From IMG/VR virus record IMGVR_UViG_3300010151_000008, positions 1-64,000 of that record: a DNA stretch of 64,000 nt, one strand, 5' to 3'. Numbering within the stretch: position 1 is the stretch's first letter; every line of letters starts with the position of its first letter. A model generated the notes under the pieces. The model ran no database searches and was not told where the DNA came from. It saw only the letters and a list, made by a program, of their open reading frames with translations. This DNA is from a virus. The translations under genes and the position numbers were made by a program. Positions 6,301-48,500 of this stretch are shown here, one piece after another.

Positions 6301-6614
6301 GGGGGTGACAAGGTTTCGACAGGGTAGAGAAACTGAATGGTGCAGGTTGTGCAATCTGAGATGATCACATTAAACTTAACTCAGAATTAACTTAACTGCC
6401 AACAACGCAGATTACGATTTAGCCTTAGCTGCTTAGTCCTTGGTTGCTCTTCACCAAGTGTTCAAGAAGAGCATTGATAAGAGAAACGCTTTTGTTAATG
6501 ATTGCGGATTAAAAAATTAACTATTTTGCTGCTTTAGAAAAAACAGCTAAACCTGTGAATGACCTGAAAGGGAAAATGCTTTGGACGTGGGTTCGATTCC
6601 CACCACCTCCACCA
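6301..6614 (+). ncRNA. ssrA: tmRNA (transfer-messenger RNA)
   Basis: 5' GGGGGTG pairs with 3' CACCTCC-ACCA with a G3-U70 alanine identity pair; GGTTTCGAC 5' motif; T-arm GTGGG-TTCGATT-CCCAC; tag ORF 6398-6436 ANNADYDLALAA*. Confidence 0.95.
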
Positions 6615-7582: not shown

Positions 7583-7699
7583 ATGGAAGTACTAGCATTC
7601 CAACACAGGGGAAACGGCCACGGCAAAGGGCGCCGCAAGCACGGCAAAAAGAAGAGAAAAAGTCGCGCTAAAGGAAGCCGATCGAGCAAAAAGAAGTGA
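7583..7699 (+). CDS. 38-aa extremely basic peptide (not in ORF track)
   Basis: MEVLAFQHRGNGHGKGRRKHGKKKRKSRAKGSRSSKKK*; fills the gap; its TGA overlaps the next GTG start (GTGA). Confidence 0.6.
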   Translation: MEVLAFQHRGNGHGKGRRKHGKKKRKSRAKGSRSSKKK

Positions 7700-8061
7700 G
7701 AGCAATAAAATTAATAATAGTTCTTCTATTATTAACTTTTTCCTCCTGTAACGCTTACAGCGAAGGCCCCGATTTAGACCTAGATATGGATCAAACAGGT
7801 TGGGCGTGTGAGCATAATCTGTGGAATATCTGGCTATATAGAGAAACGTTCAATGTGCAACTGGTCCAAGCTTACTTTTACTCAGAACCAAATCAGCTGG
7901 GATGGTATCAGGCACTTCCAGAATCAGAAGAAAACTATTATCAGAAAAAATTTATAGATATAGGTAGACAATGCGCGCCATATGATGTAAAATACATTAT
8001 GTACTTCACAGATAAAGAGCCTGAAGTGGTTTGGATGCACTGGAATGAATCATCGGAGTAA
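7696..8061 (+). CDS. Putative lipoprotein
   Basis: MRAIKLIIVLLLLTFSS-C signal/lipobox. Confidence 0.7.
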   Translation: MRAIKLIIVLLLLTFSSCNAYSEGPDLDLDMDQTGWACEHNLWNIWLYRETFNVQLVQAYFYSEPNQLGWYQALPESEENYYQKKFIDIGRQCAPYDVKYIMYFTDKEPEVVWMHWNESSE

Positions 8062-8861: not shown

Positions 8862-9269
8862 ATGACAAAGTGGAGCGACAAGACATTATTAAAATCAATA
8901 GCCAACCCATCGGGGGACGGGTACGAGATCAATATTAAGAATCCAGAGATTACCTTTATAGGAGTAAAAGACCAGCCGGATTTTGCTACTGTATACCTTA
9001 TTTTTTATCCTAAAAATTCTGTTATTGAATTAAAATCATTAAAGAGGTATTTTCAAAATTTTAGAAACACACTAGTATCTTATGAGCGGTTAATAAATGT
9101 AGTTTATGATGACCTGATAGAGGTCTATGATCCAAATCGCCTAAGAATCGAAATGGAATTTAGGCCCCGAGGTGGTATTTCTTCTCGGCTTGTGATAGAT
9201 TCTGATTGGTCTATTAGAGGGGGAGCCGAGAAGTTTAAAGATTGGGTTGGGAGAGAAAATCAATGGTAG
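8862..9269 (+). CDS. queF: QueF-like T-fold protein (preQ0 reductase homologue) lacking the catalytic Cys
   Basis: NP...PE-x-T...QPDFATV...ELKSLKRY...YE...F-x-PRGGI match unimodular QueF; the protein contains no cysteine. Confidence 0.8.
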   Translation: MTKWSDKTLLKSIANPSGDGYEINIKNPEITFIGVKDQPDFATVYLIFYPKNSVIELKSLKRYFQNFRNTLVSYERLINVVYDDLIEVYDPNRLRIEMEFRPRGGISSRLVIDSDWSIRGGAEKFKDWVGRENQW

Positions 9270-9297: not shown

Positions 9298-9326
9298 TTG
9301 ACTTTGTTGAGCTAATAGGATAAAAT
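9298..9326 (+). promoter_or_regulatory. sigma70-type promoter, probably giving a leaderless mRNA
   Basis: TTGACT-17 nt-TAAAAT; ATG 9333 starts 7 nt after the -10 box with no SD. Confidence 0.65.
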
Positions 9327-9332
9327 AACAAT

Positions 9333-9608
9333 ATGACAGGTGATCTTGGATTTATCATAGCTAGCGCCGCCGTCGTTATGAGCACAGCAGTGCTGTTAAC
9401 GGGAAAAAGCATTTTTGAAGAACAAAGGCTAGCTATGCAAAAAATATGGTCTCGCCTCCGCTATTTGGAGGTCGCCATGTCCTATCACGATATGGTGCCC
9501 CTTCCGTGGGAAAATGAAGAATTTAACGAGAAATTTGAAGACATGGAAAAGACTCGTAAATTTAAGCGCGCCGGAAACGTCGTTTATATGGAACAGGAGG
9601 GCGACTAA
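9333..9608 (+). CDS. Membrane-anchored hypothetical protein
   Basis: N-terminal TM helix; C-terminal GNVVY motif. Confidence 0.65.
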   Translation: MTGDLGFIIASAAVVMSTAVLLTGKSIFEEQRLAMQKIWSRLRYLEVAMSYHDMVPLPWENEEFNEKFEDMEKTRKFKRAGNVVYMEQEGD

Positions 9609-10072
9609 TGCGGTGTAGCTCAATGGTAGAGCATTCGGCTGTTAACCGAAGGGTTGCAGGTTCGAGCCCCGCCGCCGCAGCCATTCTCATGCTTTTTGTT
9701 CTTGGGGGGTGTTTTTTCACCTATGATGATGGACGCCGCGACGGTACCATCTCTTCTCACGAATATTATGATTATTATCCTTACATTATAGATGTAGGGT
9801 GGGACTGTTACGACGGGGGCCCCTTTGACGACTGGTATTTTTTGGCCCGAACTGATCATACATATGATTGGTATCAAATATACTACTTGAGGATTACGAT
9901 GTATTCCCTGTATGAAACAGAAGTTTTTGAATTTAAGGAGTACGACCACACGCGCGGCTACTTTGAGACTGACACTAATTTGTATAGAATTCAGTGCGGA
10001 GATCCTGTCGACATAGAATACACAGTTGTTGACAGAGACGGAAATTGGGAAAGTTTTACGCTTTACTGGTAA
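9608..10072 (+). CDS. Putative lipoprotein whose 5' end overlaps the tRNA-Asn
   Basis: AGGAGG SD 7 nt upstream, TAATG coupling, lipobox LGG-C at codon 35, Tyr/Asp-rich mature domain. Confidence 0.7.
   Translation: MRCSSMVEHSAVNRRVAGSSPAAAAILMLFVLGGCFFTYDDGRRDGTISSHEYYDYYPYIIDVGWDCYDGGPFDDWYFLARTDHTYDWYQIYYLRITMYSLYETEVFEFKEYDHTRGYFETDTNLYRIQCGDPVDIEYTVVDRDGNWESFTLYW
9609..9683 (+). tRNA. tRNA-Asn (GTT)
   Basis: Acceptor TGCGGTG/CGCCGCA, D-arm GCTC-AATGGTA-GAGC, anticodon arm TTCGG-CTGTTAA-CCGAA, T-arm GCAGG-TTCGAGC-CCCGC (one A-C mismatch), G73, encoded CCA. Confidence 0.9.
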
Positions 10073-11311: not shown

Positions 11312-12661
11312 ATGAGCAGAAAAAAAATCTATGTTATAGACACCAGTGTCCTGTTGACAAATGCCGACAGCATCTATAGTTATGGAAATAACGACTTGGT
11401 TATTCCTTTTAAAGTATTAGAAGAAATCGATAAGCACAAAAAGAGACAAGATGGTGTAGGGGCTCAGTCCCGGAAGATAATTCGCATCCTAGACGAACTA
11501 AGATCAAAGGGATCTTTGTTTAAAGGGGTGAGGATTAGAAAAGGAAAGGGATTAATTTATGCTTGGGCCGCGACCGGCCCGGGCCCGCACGGCGACACCG
11601 TCCTCCCGGACGACCTAGACAAAGCTATAGCCGATCATATTATTATAGCCACCGCCCTAACAGTTAAAAAGACACATCCAGATCGGAGAGTTATCATGGT
11701 GTCACGCGATATTAATATGCGCGTAATCTGTGACTCTTTGGGTCTTCCTACTGAGGATTTTATTAATCATCAGGTGGTTAAAGACAGCGACAGTATATAC
11801 ACAGGATTTATATCTCGTTTGGTGGATGATGAATTGATTGATAGATTTTATAACAGAGAAGAAATATATCTAGATCAGGAAGATATCAATTATCATCCCA
11901 ATCAATTTTTGATGTTGGTTTCAAGCGCAAATGAAAAGAAGACTGCGTTGGCAAAATTTATTTCCCACTCAATGCCGTTGCAACCACTTCGAAATTTCAA
12001 TAAAGGCGTGTGGGGCATTAAATCTAGGAATAAAGAGCAGTCTTTTGCCTTGGAATTGCTCATGGACCCGGGCGTTGAAATAGTAACACTAGTGGGGAAG
12101 GCCGGCTCGGGCAAAACCTTATGTGCAATCGCTGCTGGTCTTCAGCAAACTGTTGACGATCTTACGTTGAAGGGGGAACCCAGATACTCTAGATTGATAG
12201 TGTCGCGACCCGTACAACCCCTCGGAAAGGACTTGGGCTTTTTGCCCGGGACCATGGAAGAAAAAATGAAGCCATGGTTAGCCCCTATCCAGGATAATCT
12301 TCAATTTTTAATGGGAAACGACAAAACCACTTTGGAAATGTATTTAGATAGAGGGGTAATAGAGATCGAGGCCCTCACATATATTCGCGGCCGTTCTATT
12401 GCTAAAGCTTTAATTATAATTGACGAAGCGCAAAACTTGACAATCCACGAATTAAAGACTATAATAACTAGAGTAGGAGAAGGATCTAAAATTATCCTTA
12501 CAGGAGATGTAGAGCAAATAGATAATGCCTATGTGGACGAAACCACAAATGGGCTGACGCATGCTGTAGAAAAATTTAAGAAATTTGAATTAGCTGGCCA
12601 TGTTACTCTCACCAAGGGTGAAAGATCTAAGGTGGCCACCTATGCTGCTAAATATTTATAG
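11312..12661 (+). CDS. phoH: PIN-PhoH protein (PhoH2/YlaK type)
   Basis: N-terminal PIN (VIDTSVLL, EEID, D-x-x-I, SRDINMR); Walker A GKAGSGKT; LGFLPG; IRGRS; IIDEAQN; GDVEQID. Confidence 0.93.
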   Translation: MSRKKIYVIDTSVLLTNADSIYSYGNNDLVIPFKVLEEIDKHKKRQDGVGAQSRKIIRILDELRSKGSLFKGVRIRKGKGLIYAWAATGPGPHGDTVLPDDLDKAIADHIIIATALTVKKTHPDRRVIMVSRDINMRVICDSLGLPTEDFINHQVVKDSDSIYTGFISRLVDDELIDRFYNREEIYLDQEDINYHPNQFLMLVSSANEKKTALAKFISHSMPLQPLRNFNKGVWGIKSRNKEQSFALELLMDPGVEIVTLVGKAGSGKTLCAIAAGLQQTVDDLTLKGEPRYSRLIVSRPVQPLGKDLGFLPGTMEEKMKPWLAPIQDNLQFLMGNDKTTLEMYLDRGVIEIEALTYIRGRSIAKALIIIDEAQNLTIHELKTIITRVGEGSKIILTGDVEQIDNAYVDETTNGLTHAVEKFKKFELAGHVTLTKGERSKVATYAAKYL

Positions 12662-35401: not shown

Positions 35402-38400
35402 ATGGCACGCACACCCAAGATAATAAGCAAATGGACGAGCAAAGAAACTGGTGTTGCTTATACGCAGTTTAATAAATCAAAAGTAGCAGTACAGACACAG
35501 TATACCACAGCAGATGAAATTGAACAAAACACTGAGGCGATTCTTGAACTGGGCGCCCTTGCTCTTATGCGCTATTATTTCCCCGGCTCTTGGTATCAGG
35601 TAGCTGCAGGGGTCCAGGGTGACACATATGGAAGTCTACTTTTTAGTAATTTATTAGACAAGCTTACGGTCTCGGCTACCGATTTTAATAGCCGGCCTAA
35701 GATGGGGCTTCGTGTTTTGGTGGCGTGCTCTATTGATTTGACAGATGAGGAAGAGACTGCCGAGATAATTCCTCCCGAGAGTGGCCCGCCAGCTGATTTA
35801 GAGTTAGCATTGGATTATTATCTTTCTACTGGGTCGACTGATATCAAAAAAGTTTCGAGTACCGGCCGATCTATGACATTTTCAGCGGACACCCTCAACG
35901 AAAACCTGAAATTGATTGGCGCCGCTTTTACTAAATATCATAAACAACATCGTTTTTTTAATGGGCAGATTAAGCCTTCAATAAATTTTTTAAAGGAATT
36001 TGATCTTATATCAAGTTCAATTCATGCCATTCTGCGTCTGGCTGCCCAGAACTATATTGACACAGGTATTCACTCAGGTACAACATTTAAAGTTGATTTT
36101 AATGGTGATTATTCTATTGTAAATATAAAAGCCATAACTCCTGAAGGGCGCTACCTATCTCTTCCTGTGGGGTTGCTGCCGTCTTTGGGCGCCGCAGCGT
36201 TGTCTTCAAGACAAACTAATGTTTATCTGGCGTCTTTTAAAGATATATTAATCAAGTTAAGAACTCGGGGCCCGACTCAAGATTCTTATGCCAACTTTAT
36301 TAATTTTATAAAACAAGTATCCTCCCTCGGCCCGACTAAATACAAAATTAATTATTCGGGGCCGTCCCGAACCGCCGATGCCGGCGCTACCGCGGCTGCT
36401 ACCGCCACCCAAGGAACGGCAGCCGCAACCGGCACTGCTACTGGGGTGGATCCAGATGGCCCCCCAAACGCAGAACTTGGTCTGACTCCGGAGGAGAAAG
36501 AGAAACAAGAAAAGGTTATAACTCCCAAAGAGGCGGCAGAAATTCTCGAACAACAGATGAAAAAGGTCGACAAGGCCGCCCAAGAGGTCTCTAAAGAAGT
36601 TGGCAAGAAGTTGCGCGAGTTACAGGGTACCGAAGGTTTTCAAATATTCACGATGATCATCAATCGGATAGGGATTGATTCTCTTGTAAAGGAGGGGCTC
36701 CTTTGTATGCTCTTCGGAGTTGATTTTAGTATACCCGATCTTTATTCTGACATAAGAGATATGCTTTCCGCTGGCGATGGACTTTTTAGTAAGCCAAAGA
36801 CAGGCGCCCTTGTGGGCTTTGATATTCCTAAAGTGGACATGAAGTGGGAAATTTTTAAGATTACGGGAAACATTCAGCCGATGATCAAGAAGGCTCTTTT
36901 GGATGCCGTCTTCGGCGCAGTACGAGGGATCCTTGAAGCCGTTACAGAATTAATTCGCGAACAATGTGAAGCTCGCGATACCGGCAATTTTGGCGACATA
37001 GACCTTGCTAGCCTATTACAAGATAAGCCGGCCGGCGGTACTGGACTACTTGGTGATGGTTCTGGGCCTAATGGTTGTTTTTCTGAATTCGGCTTACCTC
37101 CAACGTCAGGGAACAATTTTCTTTCCCAGGTATCTCAAATCTTGACCCCGATCGAGGCATGCCAGCTTTTGACGGGGTCAGCCTCGGCCGCTGTTATGTC
37201 CGCGGTCCAAAATTTCATTCAAAATTATTCTAGCGCTACAATACAAAACGCTCTTGGGTCGCCCTCTGAAATAGCCGCCTTCTTTTTATGTATAGGGGAC
37301 CAACTCGATGTAAACGATCTTTGTCGGGAAGCTGCCGAGCGCGATATAATCCCCAACGCAGAGGAAATTTGTATTACAGGTGGGGACATTTTAGATGCTG
37401 TGGGTCAACATAATGTTAACACTCTTCTCGATATGCTTAAGGATGGCATCGCGGTGGAAATGCCAGAGATCAACTTACAGTGCCCCGACTCCGAGAACTA
37501 TATTCCCAACCCCTTTGTTGATCGATCGATCCCACAGTTAATGAGCGCTCTAATAGAGTCAATAGCCGCCAGCTTTTATTTCGCGGCCGACGGCACGAAG
37601 GCGGTTCTTTTGAGATCGCAGTTGGGACAGAATGCTACAGCAAATGCTTTGTTAGAGGCTTGCTTAAGCGAGTCAGGTTCAATGCCGGCCTCCGAGGCTC
37701 GCGGCGGAGCTGGCGCCACTCCCGGTGATATTATTGCTATGATCAGTGAGGGCATCCAGGAAGTAGTGTCAACAGACCTTAACGCTGCGTCCGATGCATG
37801 CGGTATCACCTTGGGAGAAATATTCCGAGGAACAGACGATCTAGCCGAGGTATTGGCAACATTTCAAGATGTCATAGAAAACTTTGATTTCTCGGCTTTG
37901 GGAGACATGTCCGCACAGTTGGGCTCGAACGCAAGCGATTTGGCCGCGGCGCAGTTGAGACTCGACTTTCCAGAGGGTTATAAAGAGGATTTCTTAGAAT
38001 TTATTCCTACGGCTATCAAGACTGAACTCTATAATGGCAACTATTTGTACAATTTCAACACAGCCTATCAATCTCCAGCTTTTCATGTAGAAGCGGAGGG
38101 ACCGCCATTCACGTATACGCTCGACGATGGAGACGACGACGGCGACGGCACCCCTAACTACGACGACCGCGACGAAGGCGGCACCGGCGAACCGCACGAG
38201 AACTACGATATGCACGCTCTGCAGAATGCTGCCGACGCCGCGCAGCACGCCGCCATGGCCCGGACTCGATACACGACCACCTTCGCACTCCCAGCTGAGG
38301 GATATCAGGCCAATGCAAATGCAGCTCAGATGCAAGAAGAGTTAGAAGCCATAGAGGAATGGGAATTCAATCATGGTAACTCTAATATGATAGGACAATC

Positions 38401-41400
38401 GAGGCACTTTGAAGAGTGGCTGAAGGGAAACCGGCAAGGTGACCTTTGGTGGGAGGAAGGCCAGCAGGACTGGTGGTCTCCCGAGGGCTATTCGTGGTAT
38501 CAGTGGTTTAAGCTTTGGGCCGAGCAAAGAATTGAGCGCGATGAGGAACAAGGGCCTGATTGGTGGATGCGGTCGACCTTAGCCCTCCCGGCTGATACGC
38601 GTGGCGCGCTCCCCGGGTTTGGCAATAAACAGCTATTAGGTCCGGGGTATGGGCCCGAAGATCCGCAGCCGGAGGTGGATGGCTACCAGCAAGGCTGGTG
38701 GGATATGTACCGTGCCCCAGAGCGCTGGGCCACAGCGACGCAAGCAGAAATACGCGCAGACGAGAGAGTGTGGAAAATATATCAAACGCTGTTCTCGCCA
38801 TGGCTCCGTGCCAATCCAGACGACTCCATTTTGGCCGGCGAATGGGACTACGGCGAGGTCTGGTGGATCGCAAATATTCCATTTGAGTATGTCCCCCGAC
38901 CTCCCGGCCCGGGTGGCGGTGGCCCTCAGCCAATTGCTCACATCGGGCGGTCTACGATGTTCGGTGCACCCGAAGGGATAGGTGGCCGCTCTGCCGGCTT
39001 CTCTGCTGGAACTGGAATAAAATTCCTGTTCCGGAAAGAATATGCGATTCAAAAGTATGAGAGCATTCATTTCCCGAGTTTTCAAGAAGTAACAGAAGAT
39101 AACCAGAATATATTTGTTGCCAGCGCCCCTGTGGCCTTTCGTGGAGAGATTCCTTTTATAGAGGGGCGTCAGGGACTGCAGACGACTACTGCAACAGAAT
39201 TGTATGCCGTGAACCAATCCGCGCACGGATCGGTAATTTCTCCAGATAGAATCGCAGAACGCGACGCCAATCCAGCGCGCGGCCTTTTTGCTGACATAAT
39301 CCACTCAGCATTCGCGAAAAATCTGCTAGAACACGGGAATAGTGACCTAGCCGCGGCCGCGAGGGTCACAGCCGCCGGCGGCGAATACACCTCCGGCATC
39401 TTGGCCGAATTCTATAACAACCTAGAACACCAATATTATTATGCAGCCATGGCCGGAACTATGAAGCAAATGAGTGCTTACATAGTGAAAAATGGTGCAT
39501 TTACACTTGATAGAGTACTTAAGATCCTGGTGGTTCCGGAGAGTGCTAACGATGCTACAGAACAGTTGGGAGATCTACTAGATTTCAAAAAGCTTGTTCG
39601 TGAAGTGCAGGATGAATATGTAGATGCTATTTGCTACGACGGTCTTAGTCAAGACGAGGTTTTGATTAATTCGCTTGTGTACGGAGCTATAGAACTATTT
39701 TTACAAGTGCATCTGGTTGAGTTTTATTTACAAAATGTGTTTGTTTTGTCGGCATTTGATTTAGACGGGCTGTACGAACTAGAATTGGTGATGGCATATA
39801 TTTCTTCCTCCATACAAAATACGATTGCTACTTTTTTGCAGGGGATAAGTGCCTCAGGGGCCCAGTATAATTTGTTTGAAACGAATTTTCAAGATGCGGT
39901 AGTGGAGCATGTTAGCAGAAAAATTATACGCGACGGCGGCGCTCCTATCGATGGTGAGATTCTGTCATCTTTGGGAATGTCAGAAGGCGATTTGGGAACC
40001 TACGAAGCTAGCATTAGATATCTTCTGGCTAAAAGGATGAAGGAATCCGCCCCAGCTGTATCTAAAATTATCTCCCAATGTTCACTTGGGTCTGTCGACG
40101 AAGTCTTCTTGAAGGCGGGAATTGGCATTTCTAAACCATTTTTGAAAGGCCTAGGAGCCGATTGGGGACTTAGTTCTACTAGTCGATATCTAGTAGCATC
40201 GCCAGGTGATCGGGATCTTGGGTTTACCGAGGAAGATGCTCAAATTATTGCCTATGGTGGATTTAGATTTGAGAAAATAATTAGATTCACACCGCATACA
40301 TCCGGATATTACGGAGGCTCTGAGGAAAATCCAGATGTACACCTAAGGGTGGACAAGGAGCTGGGAACCATTGCAGGGGGCAATTGGGTAGCTAACGACA
40401 CCTTTAAGATCGGCTCGGCCTATCACACCGATTCACCAATAACACAAAACTTTGTTTCATTGGACAAGCTAATTAGAGTTTTAGACGACCCCGCGGTTAC
40501 GGATAACATGACCATTCTGGGTAATCCAACGTTATATTATCGATTGGTATATTATGTTCCGATGCAAACTCGATCCGAGTATTCCGCCAACTCCTCCGGC
40601 GAAATAATTTTCGCGGACTCGGCAACTAAAAACCAAGAAATAATGGACACGATCGAGGCGTACTTCCTCGATGCTCGTGACGGAGATGACGCCATAGTGA
40701 GAGACACGCTCGATACCCTTATCAACGACCAAGCTTCATTTGTTCCGTTCTTGGTGGGCCCCGGCGGAGGGGACGCATCGATGTCGCACGCCGTCGCCGC
40801 GCCCGCATCGAGACAGAACATGACGATAGGAATTCCCATTTTAGAAGTTGAGTCGGGGGTAAATCTACCCAACAGTATGCGTCTTGATACTGATTCGAGC
40901 GCTCCCAAGCGGTACTGGGGCGCCCCCACAACGGGTGGATTATCGTTGATAAGGTCTTTGGCAGAAAAGGATTTCTTAGATGGAGATGTCGAGATCATCA
41001 TGAATGACGAGGTTGTGAAAGCACTGTTTAATAAGAGTCTGAGCAAAGATGTTATTCTGTCTACCCTCTTGTTTAATAATTTTTATCTAACAAAATCACA
41101 CTTTAGGGGAATCGATACGATCTTTAAGTCCTGCAAGGAATCGGTGGCCGCACTAATGATGCAAATACAGCAAGGCCGCGGCCTCCAGCCAGACGCTGGT
41201 GCAGCCGGCATCGCTCAAATACAGAATGCTTTAGCTAATCAAGGTCAGGGGGGAGGTAGTGACGATCCCAACGTGGCGGCCTATATCATAAAAGCTATAA
41301 TCCAAACTCCTTTTGATATCCTTAAGGGCTTAGCCGAGATAATGGATCCACATGTTGTTATAACCAAAATGATAAAAGATATAAGTGGTATGGTGATAAC

Positions 41401-41836
41401 ACAGTTTATTGAGGTTTTAGAGTCAGCATTTGGCGCCGTCCCGGGCCTAGCACAGCTTGACATTGATGTGGAGAAACTAGTAGAAGTTCTTTTCTGTACC
41501 ATGAATGAAGAAATAAAGAAGAACGGGCCCATGTCAAACGCCGCGGCAGAAATATCAGAGATGTTGTGTCAAGACATCAATCCGTGGCCCACCTTTACGA
41601 CAAAAGGAATCCAGTTTACTGGGACCATTCCCGGCATGTTTATGGCCCCTCCGGGCCCTCTGGGAATTTTCTATCTTATATATGGATTACTTAAAAACGA
41701 GATTGACAGAGGTATTGACGATGCCTTCGCCGCCCCAGCCGGCGAAACAGACGAATTCTGTATTGATGTAGAAGCTGTTGTCGAAGGCGAAGAAGATACT
41801 GGCTGCGTACCGTTCACTGCGCAGCGCGACGACTAA
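35402..41836 (+). CDS. 2144-aa virion protein of unknown function (baseplate-associated)
   Basis: Long uninterrupted ORF between spike-like and gp25-like genes; helical; hydrophobic C-terminus. Confidence 0.75.
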   Translation: MARTPKIISKWTSKETGVAYTQFNKSKVAVQTQYTTADEIEQNTEAILELGALALMRYYFPGSWYQVAAGVQGDTYGSLLFSNLLDKLTVSATDFNSRPKMGLRVLVACSIDLTDEEETAEIIPPESGPPADLELALDYYLSTGSTDIKKVSSTGRSMTFSADTLNENLKLIGAAFTKYHKQHRFFNGQIKPSINFLKEFDLISSSIHAILRLAAQNYIDTGIHSGTTFKVDFNGDYSIVNIKAITPEGRYLSLPVGLLPSLGAAALSSRQTNVYLASFKDILIKLRTRGPTQDSYANFINFIKQVSSLGPTKYKINYSGPSRTADAGATAAATATQGTAAATGTATGVDPDGPPNAELGLTPEEKEKQEKVITPKEAAEILEQQMKKVDKAAQEVSKEVGKKLRELQGTEGFQIFTMIINRIGIDSLVKEGLLCMLFGVDFSIPDLYSDIRDMLSAGDGLFSKPKTGALVGFDIPKVDMKWEIFKITGNIQPMIKKALLDAVFGAVRGILEAVTELIREQCEARDTGNFGDIDLASLLQDKPAGGTGLLGDGSGPNGCFSEFGLPPTSGNNFLSQVSQILTPIEACQLLTGSASAAVMSAVQNFIQNYSSATIQNALGSPSEIAAFFLCIGDQLDVNDLCREAAERDIIPNAEEICITGGDILDAVGQHNVNTLLDMLKDGIAVEMPEINLQCPDSENYIPNPFVDRSIPQLMSALIESIAASFYFAADGTKAVLLRSQLGQNATANALLEACLSESGSMPASEARGGAGATPGDIIAMISEGIQEVVSTDLNAASDACGITLGEIFRGTDDLAEVLATFQDVIENFDFSALGDMSAQLGSNASDLAAAQLRLDFPEGYKEDFLEFIPTAIKTELYNGNYLYNFNTAYQSPAFHVEAEGPPFTYTLDDGDDDGDGTPNYDDRDEGGTGEPHENYDMHALQNAADAAQHAAMARTRYTTTFALPAEGYQANANAAQMQEELEAIEEWEFNHGNSNMIGQSRHFEEWLKGNRQGDLWWEEGQQDWWSPEGYSWYQWFKLWAEQRIERDEEQGPDWWMRSTLALPADTRGALPGFGNKQLLGPGYGPEDPQPEVDGYQQGWWDMYRAPERWATATQAEIRADERVWKIYQTLFSPWLRANPDDSILAGEWDYGEVWWIANIPFEYVPRPPGPGGGGPQPIAHIGRSTMFGAPEGIGGRSAGFSAGTGIKFLFRKEYAIQKYESIHFPSFQEVTEDNQNIFVASAPVAFRGEIPFIEGRQGLQTTTATELYAVNQSAHGSVISPDRIAERDANPARGLFADIIHSAFAKNLLEHGNSDLAAAARVTAAGGEYTSGILAEFYNNLEHQYYYAAMAGTMKQMSAYIVKNGAFTLDRVLKILVVPESANDATEQLGDLLDFKKLVREVQDEYVDAICYDGLSQDEVLINSLVYGAIELFLQVHLVEFYLQNVFVLSAFDLDGLYELELVMAYISSSIQNTIATFLQGISASGAQYNLFETNFQDAVVEHVSRKIIRDGGAPIDGEILSSLGMSEGDLGTYEASIRYLLAKRMKESAPAVSKIISQCSLGSVDEVFLKAGIGISKPFLKGLGADWGLSSTSRYLVASPGDRDLGFTEEDAQIIAYGGFRFEKIIRFTPHTSGYYGGSEENPDVHLRVDKELGTIAGGNWVANDTFKIGSAYHTDSPITQNFVSLDKLIRVLDDPAVTDNMTILGNPTLYYRLVYYVPMQTRSEYSANSSGEIIFADSATKNQEIMDTIEAYFLDARDGDDAIVRDTLDTLINDQASFVPFLVGPGGGDASMSHAVAAPASRQNMTIGIPILEVESGVNLPNSMRLDTDSSAPKRYWGAPTTGGLSLIRSLAEKDFLDGDVEIIMNDEVVKALFNKSLSKDVILSTLLFNNFYLTKSHFRGIDTIFKSCKESVAALMMQIQQGRGLQPDAGAAGIAQIQNALANQGQGGGSDDPNVAAYIIKAIIQTPFDILKGLAEIMDPHVVITKMIKDISGMVITQFIEVLESAFGAVPGLAQLDIDVEKLVEVLFCTMNEEIKKNGPMSNAAAEISEMLCQDINPWPTFTTKGIQFTGTIPGMFMAPPGPLGIFYLIYGLLKNEIDRGIDDAFAAPAGETDEFCIDVEAVVEGEEDTGCVPFTAQRDD

Positions 41837-42312: not shown

Positions 42313-44103
42313 ATGCCAAAAAAACTGCAACCGATTAACTACACAAGTAGAGACTTTGATAGTATCAGGCGTGACTTAGAAAATTACGCTAAGCGCTATT
42401 ATCCCGATTCGTATCGAGACTTTAATGAAGCCAGTTTTGGCTCTTTGATGTTGGACACCGTTTCCTATATAGGGGATATTCTTTCCTTTTATATAGATTA
42501 TCAGACCAATGAAAGCTTTTTAGACAGCGCTATAGAATATAGTAACATAGTACGTCTTGCGAGGCAACTCGGGTTTAAGTTAAACTCCAGCCCCTCGTCT
42601 TATGGGGTTCTGACTTTTTATATCAGCGTTCCGGCTTCCACCTCGGAAGACGGACCAGATTTGGCGTACGCACCCACTCTACAAGCCGGCTCTCAGTTTG
42701 GTTCGAGCGGCGGTGGCCTTTTCACCCTTCTTGAAGATATTACTTTTTCCAACCCCGCTAATCAGATGGTGGCCGGCGTGATAGTTAATGAAGCGCCCGC
42801 ATCTTATGTTATACGTGCCCAGGGGCGCGCGGTTTCTGGACGGCTAGCACGAGAAACCAAAATTGTTGGAACCTATGAGCGTTTTAGAAAAGTATTTCTT
42901 TCATCTGACCAGGTCGCAGAGATTATATCAGTAACTGATTCCGAGGGTCATGAGTACGTAGAGGTTAATAATCTCTCTCAGAACGTAGTTTATAAGGCAA
43001 TTCGGAATACTCAAGCGTTTAGTGATACGGTACCCTCCATACTGAAAGCGGTGCCGGTCGCCCGCCGATTTACAGTTGAGAGGAGCAAGCGCGCCACTTA
43101 CTTGCAGTTTGGGTACGGATCTGACTCAGAGCTGCTTGCGGAATCGATAGCTGATCCATCTAATGTGGTTTTAAAGCTTCATGGAAAAGATTATATTACT
43201 GAAGATGATTTTGATCCAACGAGATTAATAGAAAGTGATAAATTTGGAATTGCTCCGGCTGATACCACATTAACGATCTCCTACAGAGTTAATACAACTC
43301 GCGATGTTAATGCGGCGGTGGACACTGTTGTACAGGTCTTATCCCCGCAGATAAAATTTTCAAACCAGGGCGCCTTGAATTCCACTACCAGACGAGAGGT
43401 GGCTGCGAGCCTTGAGGTAACCAACGAAAACCTAATTACAGGGGATATATCTTTGCCATCCTCTGATGAAATCCGCCAACGGGTAATTTCTCATTATTCG
43501 GCACAAAACCGCGCGGTAACAGCACAGGATTATCAGGCTGTCATTTATGGCATGCCCGTCTATTTCGGATCTGTAAAACGGTGTTCTGTGGCGAGGGACT
43601 TTACGGAGTTTAAAAGAAACGTCAACATGTATGTTATTTCTGAAGATACAACGACCGGTCGACTTACCACTACCAACTCCATTATCAAAACCAACCTTAG
43701 TACGTGGTTGGCCCAATACAAAATGATAAATGATACACTTGATATATTAGATGCCATCATAGTCAACTTTGGCGTGGAGTATCGGCTAATATCAGACTAT
43801 GACTCAAATAAATATACAGTGCTAAAAAATGCCAATTCTGCCCTAACTGCACACTTTTCCAGAACTCGTGATATCGGTGAGCCGGTATATATTACAGATA
43901 TTTATAAGGTATTGAATGGCGTTAAAGGAGTAGTAGACGTGTTGGATGTTCAGATAGTTAGCAAAACGGGCGGCATTTATTCATCGACTGGATACGATTT
44001 CGAAGCAAAACTATCTAACGACGGTCGTTATATAGTTGGAGATCCGTCGGTTATATTTGAGTTGAAATACCCCAATGTAGATATTCAGGGATCAATCACA
44101 TAA
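42313..44103 (+). CDS. Baseplate wedge protein, T4 gp6-like
   Basis: INYTSRDFDSIR...DFNEASFG...D.LSFY.D...NESFLDSA; LQFGYG; QNRAVTAQDY. Confidence 0.9.
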   Translation: MPKKLQPINYTSRDFDSIRRDLENYAKRYYPDSYRDFNEASFGSLMLDTVSYIGDILSFYIDYQTNESFLDSAIEYSNIVRLARQLGFKLNSSPSSYGVLTFYISVPASTSEDGPDLAYAPTLQAGSQFGSSGGGLFTLLEDITFSNPANQMVAGVIVNEAPASYVIRAQGRAVSGRLARETKIVGTYERFRKVFLSSDQVAEIISVTDSEGHEYVEVNNLSQNVVYKAIRNTQAFSDTVPSILKAVPVARRFTVERSKRATYLQFGYGSDSELLAESIADPSNVVLKLHGKDYITEDDFDPTRLIESDKFGIAPADTTLTISYRVNTTRDVNAAVDTVVQVLSPQIKFSNQGALNSTTRREVAASLEVTNENLITGDISLPSSDEIRQRVISHYSAQNRAVTAQDYQAVIYGMPVYFGSVKRCSVARDFTEFKRNVNMYVISEDTTTGRLTTTNSIIKTNLSTWLAQYKMINDTLDILDAIIVNFGVEYRLISDYDSNKYTVLKNANSALTAHFSRTRDIGEPVYITDIYKVLNGVKGVVDVLDVQIVSKTGGIYSSTGYDFEAKLSNDGRYIVGDPSVIFELKYPNVDIQGSIT

Positions 44104-45564: not shown

Positions 45565-48500
45565 ATGAGCTTAAAGGATACATACAGACGCCAGTTAGAA
45601 AATCTTCAAAATATTTCTAACAAGAGCGAAGAGCAAATAGCTGCGGAAGTAGAGTCTGTAGGGTATCACGAACAGGACATAATCAAAGAAGAGAGGTTTA
45701 TTCCTCGCACCGATTATTCGAGACCAAGCGCGTTTGCTCGCTACGGATCAGCTACCGAGTATTATCAACAGTCTATAAAAAGAGTTTACAGTACATACCC
45801 CTACGACGGCTCACTCAAAGAGAGGTTAGAGTGGGAAAATGATTCCAATTACTTAGATCTATATCTTTTTGAGCAGCGCTATCCTCGCACGAACGGGTAC
45901 GTAATTTTATCAGCCGACGGTTGGGGCACCCAGACTGCCACGACAGGCGGCTACGGGATGCCCTCCTCTCAAGAGTACATATCATTTATTGGCGGGCCCA
46001 ATGTAAATCCGGGAGGAATGAGCCCCATAGCGCTTCAGTTTACTGGATCAAACTATTGGGACCCAGATAAAAATAGAGTTTCGAACCTGCAGTTCGATCT
46101 GGAAAACAATGGAGCTACGGTTGAGTTTTGGCTCAAAAAAGACAGCTTTGACGCAAGCTTAACAGAGAAGGAGGTTGTTTTTGACCTCTGGAATAATGAG
46201 CTATCTTCTAGCGATTCATACGGCCGTTTTAGATTAGAGTTGTCCTCTTCCACAACACCTGGAGGCGAGGGGCCGCTCTTACTCACAGTGATGTCTGGTG
46301 CAACCGGGTTCCAGTGGGAACCTGTTGTCGTTGGCTCCGCTTTCACGACTGCCTCTATAGCAGATGGCAATTGGCACCACTATGCGGTAACTGTAAAATC
46401 TGCTAGCGCAGGGGTGCTAACAAAATTCTATGTCGACGGCGCCCTACACGCGGAAAATACGCTTGGTGTCGCCGGTATAAATAATATTGGGGGTGCCCTC
46501 AAGGGACATATCGGTGCACTAATTATTGGCCCCTCGGGGACCGTGGGCCCCGGTACGCCCGAAGAATCGGCCTTCGCTTGGACCGGCGCCGGGAAACTCT
46601 CCGCATCCATGGATGAGTTCAGGTACTGGAAAACTCAGAGAAGTTCTAAGGACATAGGAAGATATTGGATATCGCAGGTTGGGGGTGGTACCAACACAGA
46701 TCCAGCCCCCGATTCGCACGAAACTAACCTAGTGAACACAGATCTTGGAGTTTACTTTAAGTTCAATGAAGGAATCACCGGGGTCGAATCCGCGGATAGT
46801 ACCGTCTTGGACTACGCAGGCCGAGTTTCCAATGGCGCTTGGACGGGCTACGGTGAAAATTCCAGGAATACGGATTCTGCTATAGTAATTTCTAAAGCGG
46901 CTGTAAAAGAATTTAAAGATCCTATTATATACTCCTTCCATCCTGAAGTTGTATCGCTGAAGACACAGCTAGAAGCTACTGGATCCTATCATGATGTTCG
47001 CAACAATACGTCCATCTACAATTCTATTCCCGGATGGGTTCAAGAGGAAGATGACGAGAGTGCTGGAGAACTTAGGAAGTTAACTCAAATATTGGCTAGC
47101 TACTTTGATACGTTACAACTTCAGATTGATTCTGTCAATTCACTCAAAGATGTGGTTTATTACGGAGATAGTCAGAAACCTCTTCCGTTCGCCAACAAAT
47201 TATTAGAATCTATGGGTCTTATGACTCCTGAAATGTTCCTAGATGCAGATGTGCTAGAGAAGCTGGCAGATCGCAGCGAGAAGCATCTGTATGAAAAGTC
47301 ACTTAATGATATTAAGAATACAATCTATCAGAACATTTATAATAATCTAACTTATATTTATAAATCCAAAGGAACTGAAAAAGCTTTTCGTAATTTAATT
47401 CGCTGCTACGGAATTGACGACGAGCTAATCAAATTAAGCCTATATGCTAACAACATAGAGTATGAACTTCTAGATAACTCACGAAATGTTGTTACTTCGA
47501 AGAGATTCGTCAACTTTAATACAAAAGATAATCTAGGCGCCACCATCTACCAGAGTTCGGCTTCTAGTGATGCCAATTCCGTAGCGTTTATAGCCGGTTC
47601 TACTAATCTGACTGGTGGTTTTGCTTTTACCACGGAAGTTGATGTGTTGTTCCCCCGAAAAGCGCCCCCAGGTCAAGAAAACTACATCGATACCAATTTC
47701 ATAACAGCCTCTGTCTTCGGAATTCACGGTGACGCTTCCGGCAGTGAAGACACCACATGGGCAACTCCAGATGCGGTAAATTTCCAGGTTTTTGCAGTCC
47801 GAGATGAATTAAGATCTCCAAATGTTCGATTTGTGCTGACGGGAACAGCCGGGGGCTTCATGCCGCCCACCCTGGTTAGTGATTTATACGAGGATACCTA
47901 CAACAATACTAAGTGGAACTTGGCTGTACGTATTAAGCCTGAAAAATATCCTTACGAAAACTGGATTACTAGTTCGGTGAACGGCGATTATATCGTCGAA
48001 TTACGAGGTACCAACACTCAAGATGGGGTTGTACTCAATACGTTTACGCTCAGCTCTTCGATTTCATCGCCACCGCCGGCGTTCGTTAGCGGCTCCCGGC
48101 GCCTCTTCGTCGGCGCCCATCGACAAGACTTTACCGGCTCACTCCTACAGCGTTCTGATGTTAAGGTGGGCACCGCGCGCAGCTGGTTAACATATCTAGA
48201 TAATAAAACTCTTCTAGAACACGCCCAAGACATTCACAACTACGGAACACCGAATCCGCAGTGGTACGCGTTTCCATTTCACCCCAGCGCCTCATTCGGA
48301 GAAATCCCACAACTTGATACGTTAGTATTAAATTGGAACTTTAATCAGAATACGGGCTCGAACGCATCTGGCCAGTTCGGGGTAGCCGACTTCTCGTCCG
48401 GCTCTACTCAGTTAGCCACATCCCAGTACGATTGGCTCGGCCCTATTCTTCTTAATCAACACCCAGGTCGAGGAGACTTCTTTCCGGCGAACTCTATCAA

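What the first reader, a model, noticed from the sequence alone, without database searches (positions are those of the whole stretch)
9595..9712. tRNA-Asn that also appears to encode the signal peptide of a lipoprotein
Seen: the tRNA (9609-9683) starts at the T of ATG 9608. That ATG has a perfect AGGAGG SD 7 nt upstream and is TAATG-coupled to the previous gene. The frame reads through the whole tRNA, giving ...NRRVAGSSPAAAAILMLFVLGG-C, so the tRNA supplies the basic n-region and the start of the hydrophobic region. The first Met after the tRNA (9689) would leave only 7 residues before the lipobox Cys, too short for a signal peptide. The single T-stem mismatch (A9658-C9670) is at a synonymous third codon position. 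Asn identity elements (GUU, G73, U1-A72) are intact. Inference: a dual-use sequence in which tRNA excision destroys the mRNA (a mutually exclusive switch), or a tRNA being exapted into coding sequence.
Basis: partly seen in the sequence, partly recalled or inferred. Interest (0 to 1): 0.8.

Follow-up and report, generated by a model that had tools for sequence, protein, structure and literature searches.

The report
tRNA gene doubling as signal-peptide code
In a group of marine phages, a working tRNA-Asn gene sits in frame inside the start of a conserved lipoprotein gene, so the same 75 bases appear to make a tRNA and encode the front of the export signal; in some relatives the tRNA has decayed or been cut out while the reading frame survives.

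Summary
tRNA-Asn(GTT) at 9609-9683 is a strong tRNA (Rfam 66 bits). The ATG at 9608 is the last base of the upstream gene's TAA plus tRNA bases 1-2. The 154-codon ORF reads through the whole tRNA into a hydrophobic stretch, a lipobox Cys and a conserved Ig-like domain.

The arrangement is old and under selection. At least nine divergent marine phage lineages keep the intact tRNA in the same frame, although their mature domains share only 35-45% identity and synonymous sites are saturated. The tRNA differs at just 1-8 of 75 bases. All spacer length changes are multiples of three, and one lineage has no ATG/GTG/TTG between tRNA and Cys.

Within one well-supported clade the tRNA has lost its acceptor stem (L013), diverged beyond detection (L014) or lost 54 internal bases in frame (L009). 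Each keeps the same start and frame. Other relatives have an ordinary 17-23-residue lipoprotein signal and no tRNA.

Translation itself is inferred, not shown. The closest precedent is selC nested in the 3' end of selB (Mukai 2021). An unchecked first-stage note (e1-3431905) describes a similar tRNA-Tyr case on other DNA.

The parts
9333..9608 (+). Upstream 91-codon gene for a small membrane protein. Its TAA stop (9606-9608) overlaps the lipoprotein start.
   Evidence: ORF list. Homologous upstream genes whose stop overlaps the lipoprotein ATG (TAATG or ATGA) occur in 11 of 13 loci examined.
9595..9600 (+). Shine-Dalgarno-like AGGAGG, 7 nt before the ATG.
   Evidence: Read directly from the sequence. 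Relatives have purine-rich but weaker equivalents.
9608..9610 (+). Proposed start codon: A at tRNA position -1 plus tRNA bases U1 and G2. The RNase P cleavage site falls between its first and second base.
   Evidence: This ATG is kept in all tRNA-bearing loci, including L003, which has no overlapping upstream stop.
9609..9683 (+). tRNA-Asn(GTT), 75 nt including the encoded CCA, which is exactly 25 codons.
   Evidence: ARAGORN. Rfam 66.2 bits. 95% of stem cells paired across 5 lineages, with A-U / U-A / A.C at the third T-stem pair. It is the only tRNA in the 92.7-kb contig.
9623..9625 (+). In-frame ATG inside the D-loop; an alternative start that is not conserved.
   Evidence: It is ACG in L002/P0002 and has no SD-like sequence upstream.
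9684..9709 (+). 26-nt post-tRNA segment that encodes the end of the hydrophobic region and the lipobox residues before Cys.
   Evidence: Spacer lengths in tRNA-bearing relatives are 26, 26, 38, 26 and 29 nt, all 2 mod 3. The segment is always hydrophobic and ends in G/S + C.
9689..9691 (+). First ATG after the tRNA; rejected as the start.
   Evidence: It would leave 7 residues before Cys. The equivalent is absent or even closer to Cys in relatives, and L012 has no ATG/GTG/TTG there at all.
9608..9712 (+). Proposed lipoprotein signal peptide of 34 residues plus the lipobox Cys.
   Evidence: A rule-based check is met: Cys at position 35, Arg within the first 7 residues, a 19-residue uncharged run and a lipobox pattern.
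9710..10072 (+). Mature lipoprotein: Cys, a disordered tether of about 20 residues, and a 7-strand Ig/Fn3-like domain; the range includes the stop codon.
   Evidence: AlphaFold2 pLDDT 84.8, with residues 1-19 below 50. Only weak Fn3/Ig matches. pN is 0.14-0.43 while pS is saturated, and dN/dS is about 0.08 where measurable. Wider family members are all lipoproteins.

Best explanation
A functional tRNA-Asn gene is nested, in sense and in frame, in the first 25 codons after the start codon of a conserved phage lipoprotein gene.

Proposed mechanism:
- The gene pair is transcribed with the upstream small membrane-protein gene.
- Ribosomes that finish the upstream gene at its TAA sit on the first bases of the tRNA. 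This keeps the acceptor and D arms unfolded.
- These ribosomes re-initiate at the overlapping ATG (9608).
- They translate the tRNA sequence as a long, positively charged n-region plus the first part of the hydrophobic region of a type II (lipoprotein) signal peptide.
- The 26 nt after the CCA supply the rest of the hydrophobic core and the lipobox.
- Signal peptidase II then removes all tRNA-encoded residues, so the mature membrane-tethered Ig-like protein is unaffected.

Transcripts that instead fold and are cut by RNase P, between the A and the UG of the start codon, yield tRNA-Asn and lose the lipoprotein start. Each transcript therefore gives one product or the other.

Because the tRNA with CCA is exactly 75 nt, it behaves as an in-frame cassette. 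In some lineages the tRNA function was later lost, and the sequence lived on, or was trimmed in frame, purely as signal-peptide code.

Shown here: the tRNA, the conserved frame linkage, purifying selection on both products, and the derived relic and deletion states.

Inferred: initiation at 9608, coupling to the upstream gene, lipidation, and the trade-off at RNase P.
For: 1. The tRNA is real and constrained as RNA.
- It scores 66.2 bits.
- It differs at only 1-8 of 75 nt among five lineages whose flanking synonymous sites are saturated (pS 0.75-0.90).
- 95% of stem cells are paired. The third T-stem pair is A-U in L002, U-A in L003 and A.C in the others.

2. The lipoprotein is under purifying selection in tRNA-bearing lineages.
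- pN is 0.14-0.43 with saturated pS, and dN/dS is about 0.08 where it can be measured.
- Every wider family member is a lipoprotein with a 15-24-residue signal.
- The product therefore needs a signal peptide.

3. All tRNA-bearing homologues keep the same frame. These are the window, L002, L003, L004/5/6, L012, and P0001, P0003, P0004 and P0006.
- Spacers of 26, 26, 38, 26 and 29 nt differ only by multiples of 3.
- Starts after the tRNA would give 4-12 residues before Cys.
- L012 has no ATG/GTG/TTG there.

4. The syntenic relative L001 and L007/8/11 have no tRNA.
- They have an ordinary 17-residue signal starting at the same stop-overlapping ATG.
- The L001 phage has no tRNA-Asn anywhere in its 170-kb record.

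5. Clade A (support 100/99) contains intact-tRNA members and three derived states.
- L013/L015: acceptor stem lost, Rfam 32.6 bits over model positions 6-65 only.
- L014: 21.8 bits, below the gathering score.
- L009/L010: only the two acceptor-stem ends remain, and 54 nt were deleted in frame.
- All three keep the same ATG and frame.

6. In the relics the tRNA-derived residues moved towards a better signal peptide.
- They became more hydrophobic, and L014 gained positive charge.
- Neutral simulations give P about 0.03 for L013 and 0.002 for L014. This test was chosen after seeing the data.

7. No terminator-like site lies between the tRNA and the ORF body.
Against: - There is no direct evidence of translation, lipidation or a mature tRNA from this locus.
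- The frame through this type of tRNA-Asn is open anyway, as the unrelated ORFs P0007 and P0008 show. A relic staying open has a chance probability of about 0.5.
- The start codon is buried in the acceptor stem of a stable, fast-folding RNA that is an RNase P substrate, so initiation may be inefficient.
- The A at -1 is also constrained by the upstream stop codon in most lineages.
- A 34-38-residue lipoprotein signal is at or beyond the upper end of the usual range.
- No SignalP or LipoP prediction was possible.
- L014 keeps stem pairing through four compensatory changes (P about 0.003). It may have been, or may still be, a structured RNA and not a purely coding relic.
- The deep branching order is unresolved, so the ancestral state of the whole family is unknown.
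Confidence: 0.7

Rival explanations
1. The tRNA-encoded stretch is used, but translation starts inside the tRNA and not at 9608. Candidates are the D-loop ATG at 9623 or lineage-specific GTG codons. This would give a 29-30-residue signal peptide. The dual coding would still be real, but the start codon would not straddle the RNase P site.
For: An in-frame ATG in the D-loop is present in most lineages. L002 has a GTG in the variable loop. These starts put the Cys at position 21-34, which is more typical.
Against: The D-loop ATG is ACG in L002/P0002. No SD-like sequence precedes it. These starts leave no Lys/Arg in the first 7 residues. The deletion form L009 and the tRNA-free relatives all use the stop-overlapping ATG, which is the same position as 9608.
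Confidence: 0.13
2. The tRNA is an ordinary intergenic tRNA. The lipoprotein is translated from a start after the tRNA, either a near-cognate codon or the short post-tRNA ATG/TTG, perhaps on the processed downstream RNA fragment. The long ORF would then be a gene-caller artefact.
For: Gene callers that mask tRNAs do call the gene from TTG just after the tRNA (P0010 and P0023). The tRNA frame is intrinsically open. The window has an ATG 5 nt after the CCA.
Against: Such starts leave 4-12 residues before Cys, with no charged n-region. They are not conserved, and L012 has none. Indels upstream of these starts are still multiples of 3 (L003, L012). The relic and deletion forms keep the upstream ATG and frame. 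Every family member outside this group has a full-length signal.
Confidence: 0.1
3. The lipoprotein gene was inactivated by the tRNA insertion and is a decaying pseudogene in tRNA-bearing phages.
For: The insertion removed the original n-region. No expression data exist.
Against: The mature domain shows strong purifying selection across tRNA-bearing lineages whose synonymous sites are saturated. It has no stops or frameshifts in at least nine lineages.
Confidence: 0.03
4. The tRNA-like sequence in the window no longer works as a tRNA and only the coding function remains.
For: One A.C mismatch in the T stem. No tRNA sequencing data.
Against: The full-length score is 66 bits with all identity elements present. 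Nucleotide conservation far exceeds what a signal-peptide n-region needs. The third T-stem pair has two Watson-Crick forms, A-U and U-A. Where constraint really was lost, in L013 and L014, the sequence changed quickly.
Confidence: 0.04

Closest known systems
selC (tRNA-Sec) nested inside the selB ORF of Alphaproteobacteria (Mukai 2021, PMC8124441; bioinformatic prediction)
   Same: - A whole tRNA lies in sense orientation inside a protein ORF.
- The tRNA length is usually a multiple of three.
- There are stop/start overlaps with the neighbouring gene.
- Remnant tRNAs are still translated in some lineages.
- The proposed model is that tRNA processing and full-length protein are alternative outcomes.
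   Different: - There the tRNA is at the 3' end and adds a C-terminal extension. Here it is at the 5' end, the start codon straddles the RNase P site, and the encoded residues do a job as a signal peptide that is later cleaved off.
- This case is in phages, not bacteria.
- No functional link between tRNA-Asn and the protein is known, unlike SelB and tRNA-Sec.
tRNA genes integrated in protein genes of compact animal mitochondrial genomes, for example tRNA-Lys inside cox1 of Armadillidium vulgare (Doublet et al. 2015, cited in PMC8124441)
   Same: A tRNA in direct orientation lies within coding sequence, so processing and translation compete for the same transcript.
   Different: That case is a mitochondrial genome under extreme compaction, with a reduced 60-nt tRNA, and it does not involve a start codon or an export signal. 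I did not read the paper itself; it is cited only through Mukai 2021.
Ordinary bacterial and phage lipoprotein (SPase II) signal peptides
   Same: Positively charged n-region, an uncharged hydrophobic run, and a lipobox ending in Cys. Relatives without the tRNA have exactly this.
   Different: Here 25 of the 34 residues are dictated by a tRNA sequence. The signal peptide is about twice the family's usual length.
tRNA-mRNA co-transcripts and tmRNA (from my own knowledge of the E. coli tufB and secG-leuU operons and of ssrA)
   Same: tRNA and coding sequence share one transcript, or one molecule in tmRNA.
   Different: In those operons the tRNA and the ORF do not overlap. In tmRNA the tRNA-like part and the coding part are separate segments.

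Membership tests
tRNA (Rfam RF00005), tRNA-Asn | Full cloverleaf that scores above the family gathering score. | tested here: met
   66.2 bits against 29, model positions 1-71. ARAGORN calls tRNA-Asn.
tRNA (Rfam RF00005), tRNA-Asn | Asn identity: anticodon GUU and discriminator G73 (from established knowledge of AsnRS recognition). | tested here: met
   Anticodon gtt. G at 9680 before the encoded CCA.
tRNA (Rfam RF00005), tRNA-Asn | Evolutionary constraint on the RNA structure. | tested here: met
   Only 1-8 of 75 nt differ although neighbouring synonymous sites are saturated. 95% of stem cells are paired. One pair has two Watson-Crick forms. With only 5 sequences the covariation statistics alone are not significant.
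tRNA (Rfam RF00005), tRNA-Asn | A mature, aminoacylated tRNA is produced. | not testable with these tools
   No RNA data were available for this phage.
Bacterial lipoprotein (type II) signal peptide | Lipobox ending in Cys, preceded by an uncharged hydrophobic run and a positively charged N-terminus, with Cys within roughly the first 15-35 residues (PROSITE PS51257-type rule, recalled from memory). | tested here: met
   From ATG 9608 the Cys is at position 35, Arg is at position 2, the uncharged run is 19 residues and the pattern matches. From ATG 9689 every criterion fails. In L003, L012, L013 and L014 the Cys is at position 36-39, slightly beyond the rule's limit.
Bacterial lipoprotein (type II) signal peptide | Prediction by a trained predictor (SignalP or LipoP), and experimental lipidation or globomycin sensitivity. 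| not testable with these tools
   No such predictor is available here. Pfam scans of the N-termini gave nothing useful.
Nested tRNA-in-ORF arrangement (as defined for selB/selC, PMC8124441) | The entire tRNA lies within a protein ORF on the same strand. | tested here: met
   tRNA 9609-9683 lies within ORF 9608-10072.
Nested tRNA-in-ORF arrangement (as defined for selB/selC, PMC8124441) | The overlap is conserved across divergent lineages, and remnant tRNAs are still read in frame. | tested here: met
   At least nine tRNA-bearing lineages, plus the relics L013/L015 and L014 and the in-frame deletion L009/L010.
Nested tRNA-in-ORF arrangement (as defined for selB/selC, PMC8124441) | The tRNA-encoded residues are actually translated. 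| not testable with these tools
   This rests only on comparative inference. It has not been shown experimentally for selB either.

The most novel reading that the evidence does not exclude
The overlap is a selected kinetic switch and not just a tolerated accident. RNase P cleavage inside the start codon, competing with termination-reinitiation by ribosomes arriving from the upstream gene, would set the ratio of tRNA-Asn to lipoprotein from one transcript. Output would then be tied to the host's translational and RNA-processing state during infection. The phage's own tmRNA might rescue ribosomes stalled on the upstream ORF, whose stop codon becomes the very 3' end of the RNA after RNase P cleavage.
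Probability: 0.2. Interest if true: 0.88.

Novelty: new variant of a known kind. Interest (0 to 1): 0.72.

Why it matters
If the tRNA bases are translated, three things follow.

1. This would be the first example I could find of a functional tRNA gene nested at the 5' end of a protein gene, with the start codon split by the RNase P site. It would also be the first such case in a virus of bacteria. The only bacterial precedent in the literature searched is a C-terminal, purely bioinformatic case, selB/selC.

2. The related loci form a natural series: intact dual-use tRNA, then a tRNA with a broken acceptor stem, then an unrecognisable relic, then an in-frame deletion. This documents step by step how non-coding RNA sequence can be recruited as protein-coding sequence. 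Signal peptides tolerate almost any N-terminal extension, and the extension is then cleaved off.

3. There is a practical consequence. Annotation pipelines that mask tRNAs before gene calling truncate these genes (P0010, P0023) or miss them. The same may apply to other ORFs that abut tRNAs.

The system is small enough to test directly with a reporter construct.

Tried and rejected
Tools and searches that gave nothing:
The DNA for P0001, P0003, P0004 and P0006 could not be fetched, so those lineages are known only as proteins.
- A viral-contig scan with the single protein found nothing. Scans with alignments found only the L001 contig.
- tblastn against isolated phages found no match. blastn there matched only tRNA-Asn genes.
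- The genome-contig scan found no relative. An earlier attempt failed for lack of a conserved block.
- No RNA holder was listed among public runs, so expression could not be examined. DNA contigs were used only to confirm the junctions.
- Pfam and PHROGs give no family for the lipoprotein or its N-termini.
- Foldseek against PDB gave only weak generic Fn3/Ig-like matches with E about 0.01. The function of the mature domain stays unknown.
- Minimum-free-energy folding of the region was uninformative.
- A possible paralogue at 7696-8061 is not detectably related.

Tests that were weak or inconclusive:
- An open frame in the relics is not significant by itself; the chance probability is about 0.5.
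- Whether the tRNA-free group with an ordinary signal (L001, L007, L008, L011) is ancestral or a clean loss could not be settled. The deep backbone is a polytomy. The AU test against a single tRNA-derived clade is only marginal (p = 0.037).

Literature:
- Searches for a phage or 5'-end precedent found only Mukai 2021.

Full report
**What is at the locus**

- AGGAGG lies at 9595-9600, followed by a 7-nt spacer and the ATG at 9608.
- The A of that ATG is the last base of the TAA stop (9606-9608) of the preceding 91-codon ORF.
- ARAGORN finds tRNA-Asn(gtt) at 9609-9683 with CCA encoded. Rfam scores it 66.2 bits over the full model.
- The ORF 9608-10072 (154 codons) runs through the whole tRNA.
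- Counting from 9608, the tRNA fills codons 1-26. It contributes two bases of the ATG and one base of codon 26.
- Nine more codons give a hydrophobic stretch and Gly-Gly-Cys. The Cys codon is at 9710-9712.
- The one non-standard stem pair, A9658/C9670, joins two third codon positions.
- The window is the first 64 kb of a 92.7-kb virus record. All large ORFs are on one strand, there is a baseplate wedge homologue and a tmRNA gene, and no other tRNA is present.
- Contigs from independent samples confirm both junctions of the tRNA.

**The downstream gene is a real, selected lipoprotein gene**

- A search of 5.8 billion proteins found six homologues at 92-41% identity. All begin with the same tRNA-derived peptide, followed by 7-10 hydrophobic residues and G/S-Cys.
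- A profile search of 1.8 billion cluster representatives found more distant members, including two-domain bacterial forms. Every full-length one starts with an ordinary 15-24-residue lipoprotein signal.
- AlphaFold2 models the mature part as a tether of about 20 disordered residues plus a confident 7-strand beta-sandwich (pLDDT 84.8). Structural matches are only generic Ig/Fn3-like, and no Pfam or PHROG family matches. The function of the domain is unknown.
- Between tRNA-bearing lineages the mature domain has pN 0.14-0.43 while synonymous sites are saturated (pS 0.75-0.90). Where dS can be estimated, dN/dS is about 0.08.
- The protein is therefore made and needed in phages that carry the tRNA, and its family biology requires a signal peptide.

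**Related loci**

Scans of IMG/VR and of JGI metagenomes gave 17 marine loci with the same gene order. The order is tmRNA, small genes, an upstream membrane-protein gene of about 90 codons, the lipoprotein gene, then a cytidylyltransferase gene. The loci fall into four states.

1. Intact tRNA-Asn in frame: the window, L002, L003, L004/5/6 and L012. By their N-terminal peptides, P0001, P0003, P0004 and P0006 belong here too.
2. tRNA-derived sequence that detectors no longer accept.
   - L013/L015 score 32.6 bits, but only over model positions 6-65. The acceptor stem keeps 4 of 7 pairs.
   - L014 scores 21.8 bits, below the gathering score. ARAGORN finds no tRNA-Asn in it even at 70% thresholds.
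3. L009/L010 keep only the first 6 or so and the last 11 or so bases of the tRNA, which are the two halves of the acceptor stem plus CCA. They lack 54 nt (18 codons) compared with L012.
4. No trace of a tRNA and an ordinary 17-23-residue signal: L001, L007, L008, L011 and L016. The L001 phage record is 170 kb and estimated 94% complete. It has tRNA-Ile, tRNA-Leu and tRNA-Lys but no tRNA-Asn.

**Evidence that the tRNA bases are also read as codons**

- Frame linkage. The distance from the CCA to the Cys codon is 26, 26, 38, 26 and 29 nt in the five tRNA-bearing DNA loci. It is the equivalent of 26 or 29 nt in the four protein-only lineages. Together with the +3 nt in L013 and the 54-nt deletion in L009, that makes at least four independent length changes, all multiples of three. 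Chance would give about (1/3)^4. Some of these changes lie upstream of any conceivable post-tRNA start (L003, L012).
- No alternative start. ATG/GTG/TTG codons after the tRNA would leave 4-12 residues before the Cys, are not conserved in position, and are absent in L012. The D-loop ATG is ACG in L002.
- One universal start. The only start shared by all lineages is the ATG formed by base -1 and tRNA bases 1-2. It is the same stop-overlapping ATG (TAATG or ATGA) that the tRNA-free relatives and the deletion form use. L003 keeps it even though its upstream gene has been replaced.
- Conserved post-tRNA segment. It stays hydrophobic and keeps its lipobox although its nucleotides have diverged freely, so it is translated.
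- Behaviour after tRNA loss. When the tRNA constraint disappears, the frame and the start persist, and the former tRNA codons drift towards better signal-peptide character. Neutral-substitution simulations give P about 0.03 for the hydrophobicity gain in L013 and about 0.002 for hydrophobicity plus charge in L014. These measures were chosen after seeing the data, so the values are indicative only.

Caveats on this evidence:
- The open frame across an intact tRNA-Asn carries no weight, because unrelated ORFs P0007 and P0008 show it too.
- A relic staying free of stops is roughly a coin toss.

**Evidence that the tRNA is also a working tRNA**

- The five intact copies differ at 1-8 of 75 positions while neighbouring synonymous sites are saturated.
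- Half of the 12 variable tRNA positions are third codon positions.
- The third T-stem pair occurs as A.C, A-U and U-A. Both Watson-Crick forms are synonymous in the overlapping Ala and Pro codons.
- Anticodon, discriminator G and the U1-A72 pair are intact.
- The rapid change of L013 and L014 shows what happens when this constraint is released.

**Direction of evolution**

- On a tree of the mature domain, clade A has 100/99 support. It contains intact-tRNA members in two subclades (L012/P0004/P0005, and P0006), together with L013, L014 and L009.
- The relics and the deletion are therefore derived from a tRNA-bearing ancestor.
- L009 cannot be a pre-insertion state, because it carries both ends of the tRNA.
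- Deeper branches are unresolved. It is unclear whether the L001 group kept the ancestral signal or lost the tRNA cleanly. The AU test against a single tRNA-derived clade gives p = 0.037, which is only marginal.
- An unexplained detail: L014 has four compensatory double changes in its D, anticodon and T stems (P about 0.003 by chance), and possibly a matching change at the D-loop/T-loop tertiary pair. It either spent a long time as a divergent functional tRNA before losing its acceptor stem, or it still forms a tRNA-like fold.

**Mechanism (inferred)**

- No terminator-like site separates the tRNA from the ORF body. A promoter-like site at 9298-9326 precedes the upstream gene, but such matches are not above shuffled expectation.
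- On a shared transcript, RNase P would cut between A9608 and U9609, inside the start codon. Processing to tRNA therefore removes the lipoprotein's start.
- A ribosome terminating on the overlapping TAA covers the 5' acceptor and D-stem bases, which prevents folding and favours re-initiation.
- The two outputs are thus mutually exclusive for each transcript.
- Signal peptidase II would remove every tRNA-encoded residue. This explains why a 25-residue insert of arbitrary sequence is tolerated.
- The 75-nt length (25 codons) makes the tRNA an in-frame cassette.
- Whether the trade-off is used for regulation is unknown.

**Comparison with what is known**

- The closest precedent is Mukai 2021 (PMC8124441). 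It predicted from genomes that selC is nested in the 3' end of the selB ORF in many Alphaproteobacteria. It found remnants that are still translated and proposed the same either/or model. It called itself the first report of a whole tRNA nested in a bacterial ORF.
- That paper cites mitochondrial cases such as tRNA-Lys inside cox1 of Armadillidium.
- The present case is the same kind of thing, with four differences. The tRNA is at the 5' end. The start codon straddles the RNase P site. The tRNA-derived residues serve as a cleavable export signal. The host is a phage.
- Four full-text searches found no phage or 5'-end example.
- Within this scan, an unchecked first-stage note on another genome (e1-3431905) describes an ORF with a lipoprotein-like signal reading through tRNA-Tyr. 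It is a lead, not evidence.

**Verdict**

The dual-use and exaptation reading is supported by comparative evidence.

| Claim | My estimate |
|---|---|
| Translation starts at or within the tRNA | about 0.85 |
| Translation starts at 9608 itself | about 0.7 |
| The overlap is a selected regulatory switch | about 0.2 |

It is a new variant of a known, and itself barely explored, kind of arrangement. It is readily testable.

Noticed in passing
window 6301-6614; also L001 1460-1778, L002 1019-1332, L003 575-906, L012 596-914: This phage group encodes a full-length tmRNA (Rfam 125-143 bits) with a conserved 12-residue tag ending in ALAA, about 3 kb upstream of the tRNA/lipoprotein locus. It is also present in L001, which lacks the tRNA-Asn.
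   Followed up: partly
L014 746-820: The unrecognisable tRNA relic keeps D, anticodon and T stem pairing through four compensatory double substitutions (chance P about 0.003). Its acceptor stem, T-loop and anticodon loop are altered. It may still form a tRNA-like fold.
   Followed up: partly
window 7696-8061: A second small ORF (121 aa) has a lipoprotein-type signal ending in SSC and a Trp/Tyr-rich body. It has no detectable similarity to the lipoprotein studied here (BLASTP E 0.2) and no Pfam family.
   Followed up: partly
window 8862-9269: A QueF-like protein (Pfam PF14489, E 1e-21) contains no cysteine at all and lies 340 nt upstream of tRNA-Asn, which is a queuosine-modified tRNA species. 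Earlier scan notes on look-alike DNA describe the same cysteine-less family.
   Followed up: no
L003 3600-3676 and L004 535-611: Relatives carry extra tRNAs near this locus (tRNA-Arg TCT 214 nt upstream in L003; tRNA-Ile TAT in L004). In L003 the usual upstream membrane-protein gene is replaced. tRNA content in this region is fluid.
   Followed up: no
proteins P0007, P0008, P0010, P0022, P0023: Public protein sets contain spurious ORFs translated from tRNA-Asn (P0007, P0008). They also contain truncated calls of this lipoprotein starting just after or inside the tRNA (P0010, P0022, P0023), which shows how pipelines mishandle the overlap.
   Followed up: partly
window 35402-41836 and 45565-55110: Two very large ORFs (2144 and 3181 codons) lie in the structural region next to a baseplate-wedge homologue (42313-44103). 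They were not examined.
   Followed up: no
window 11312-12661: A PIN-PhoH fusion protein (449 aa) is conserved at high identity in L001 (7451-8791).
   Followed up: no
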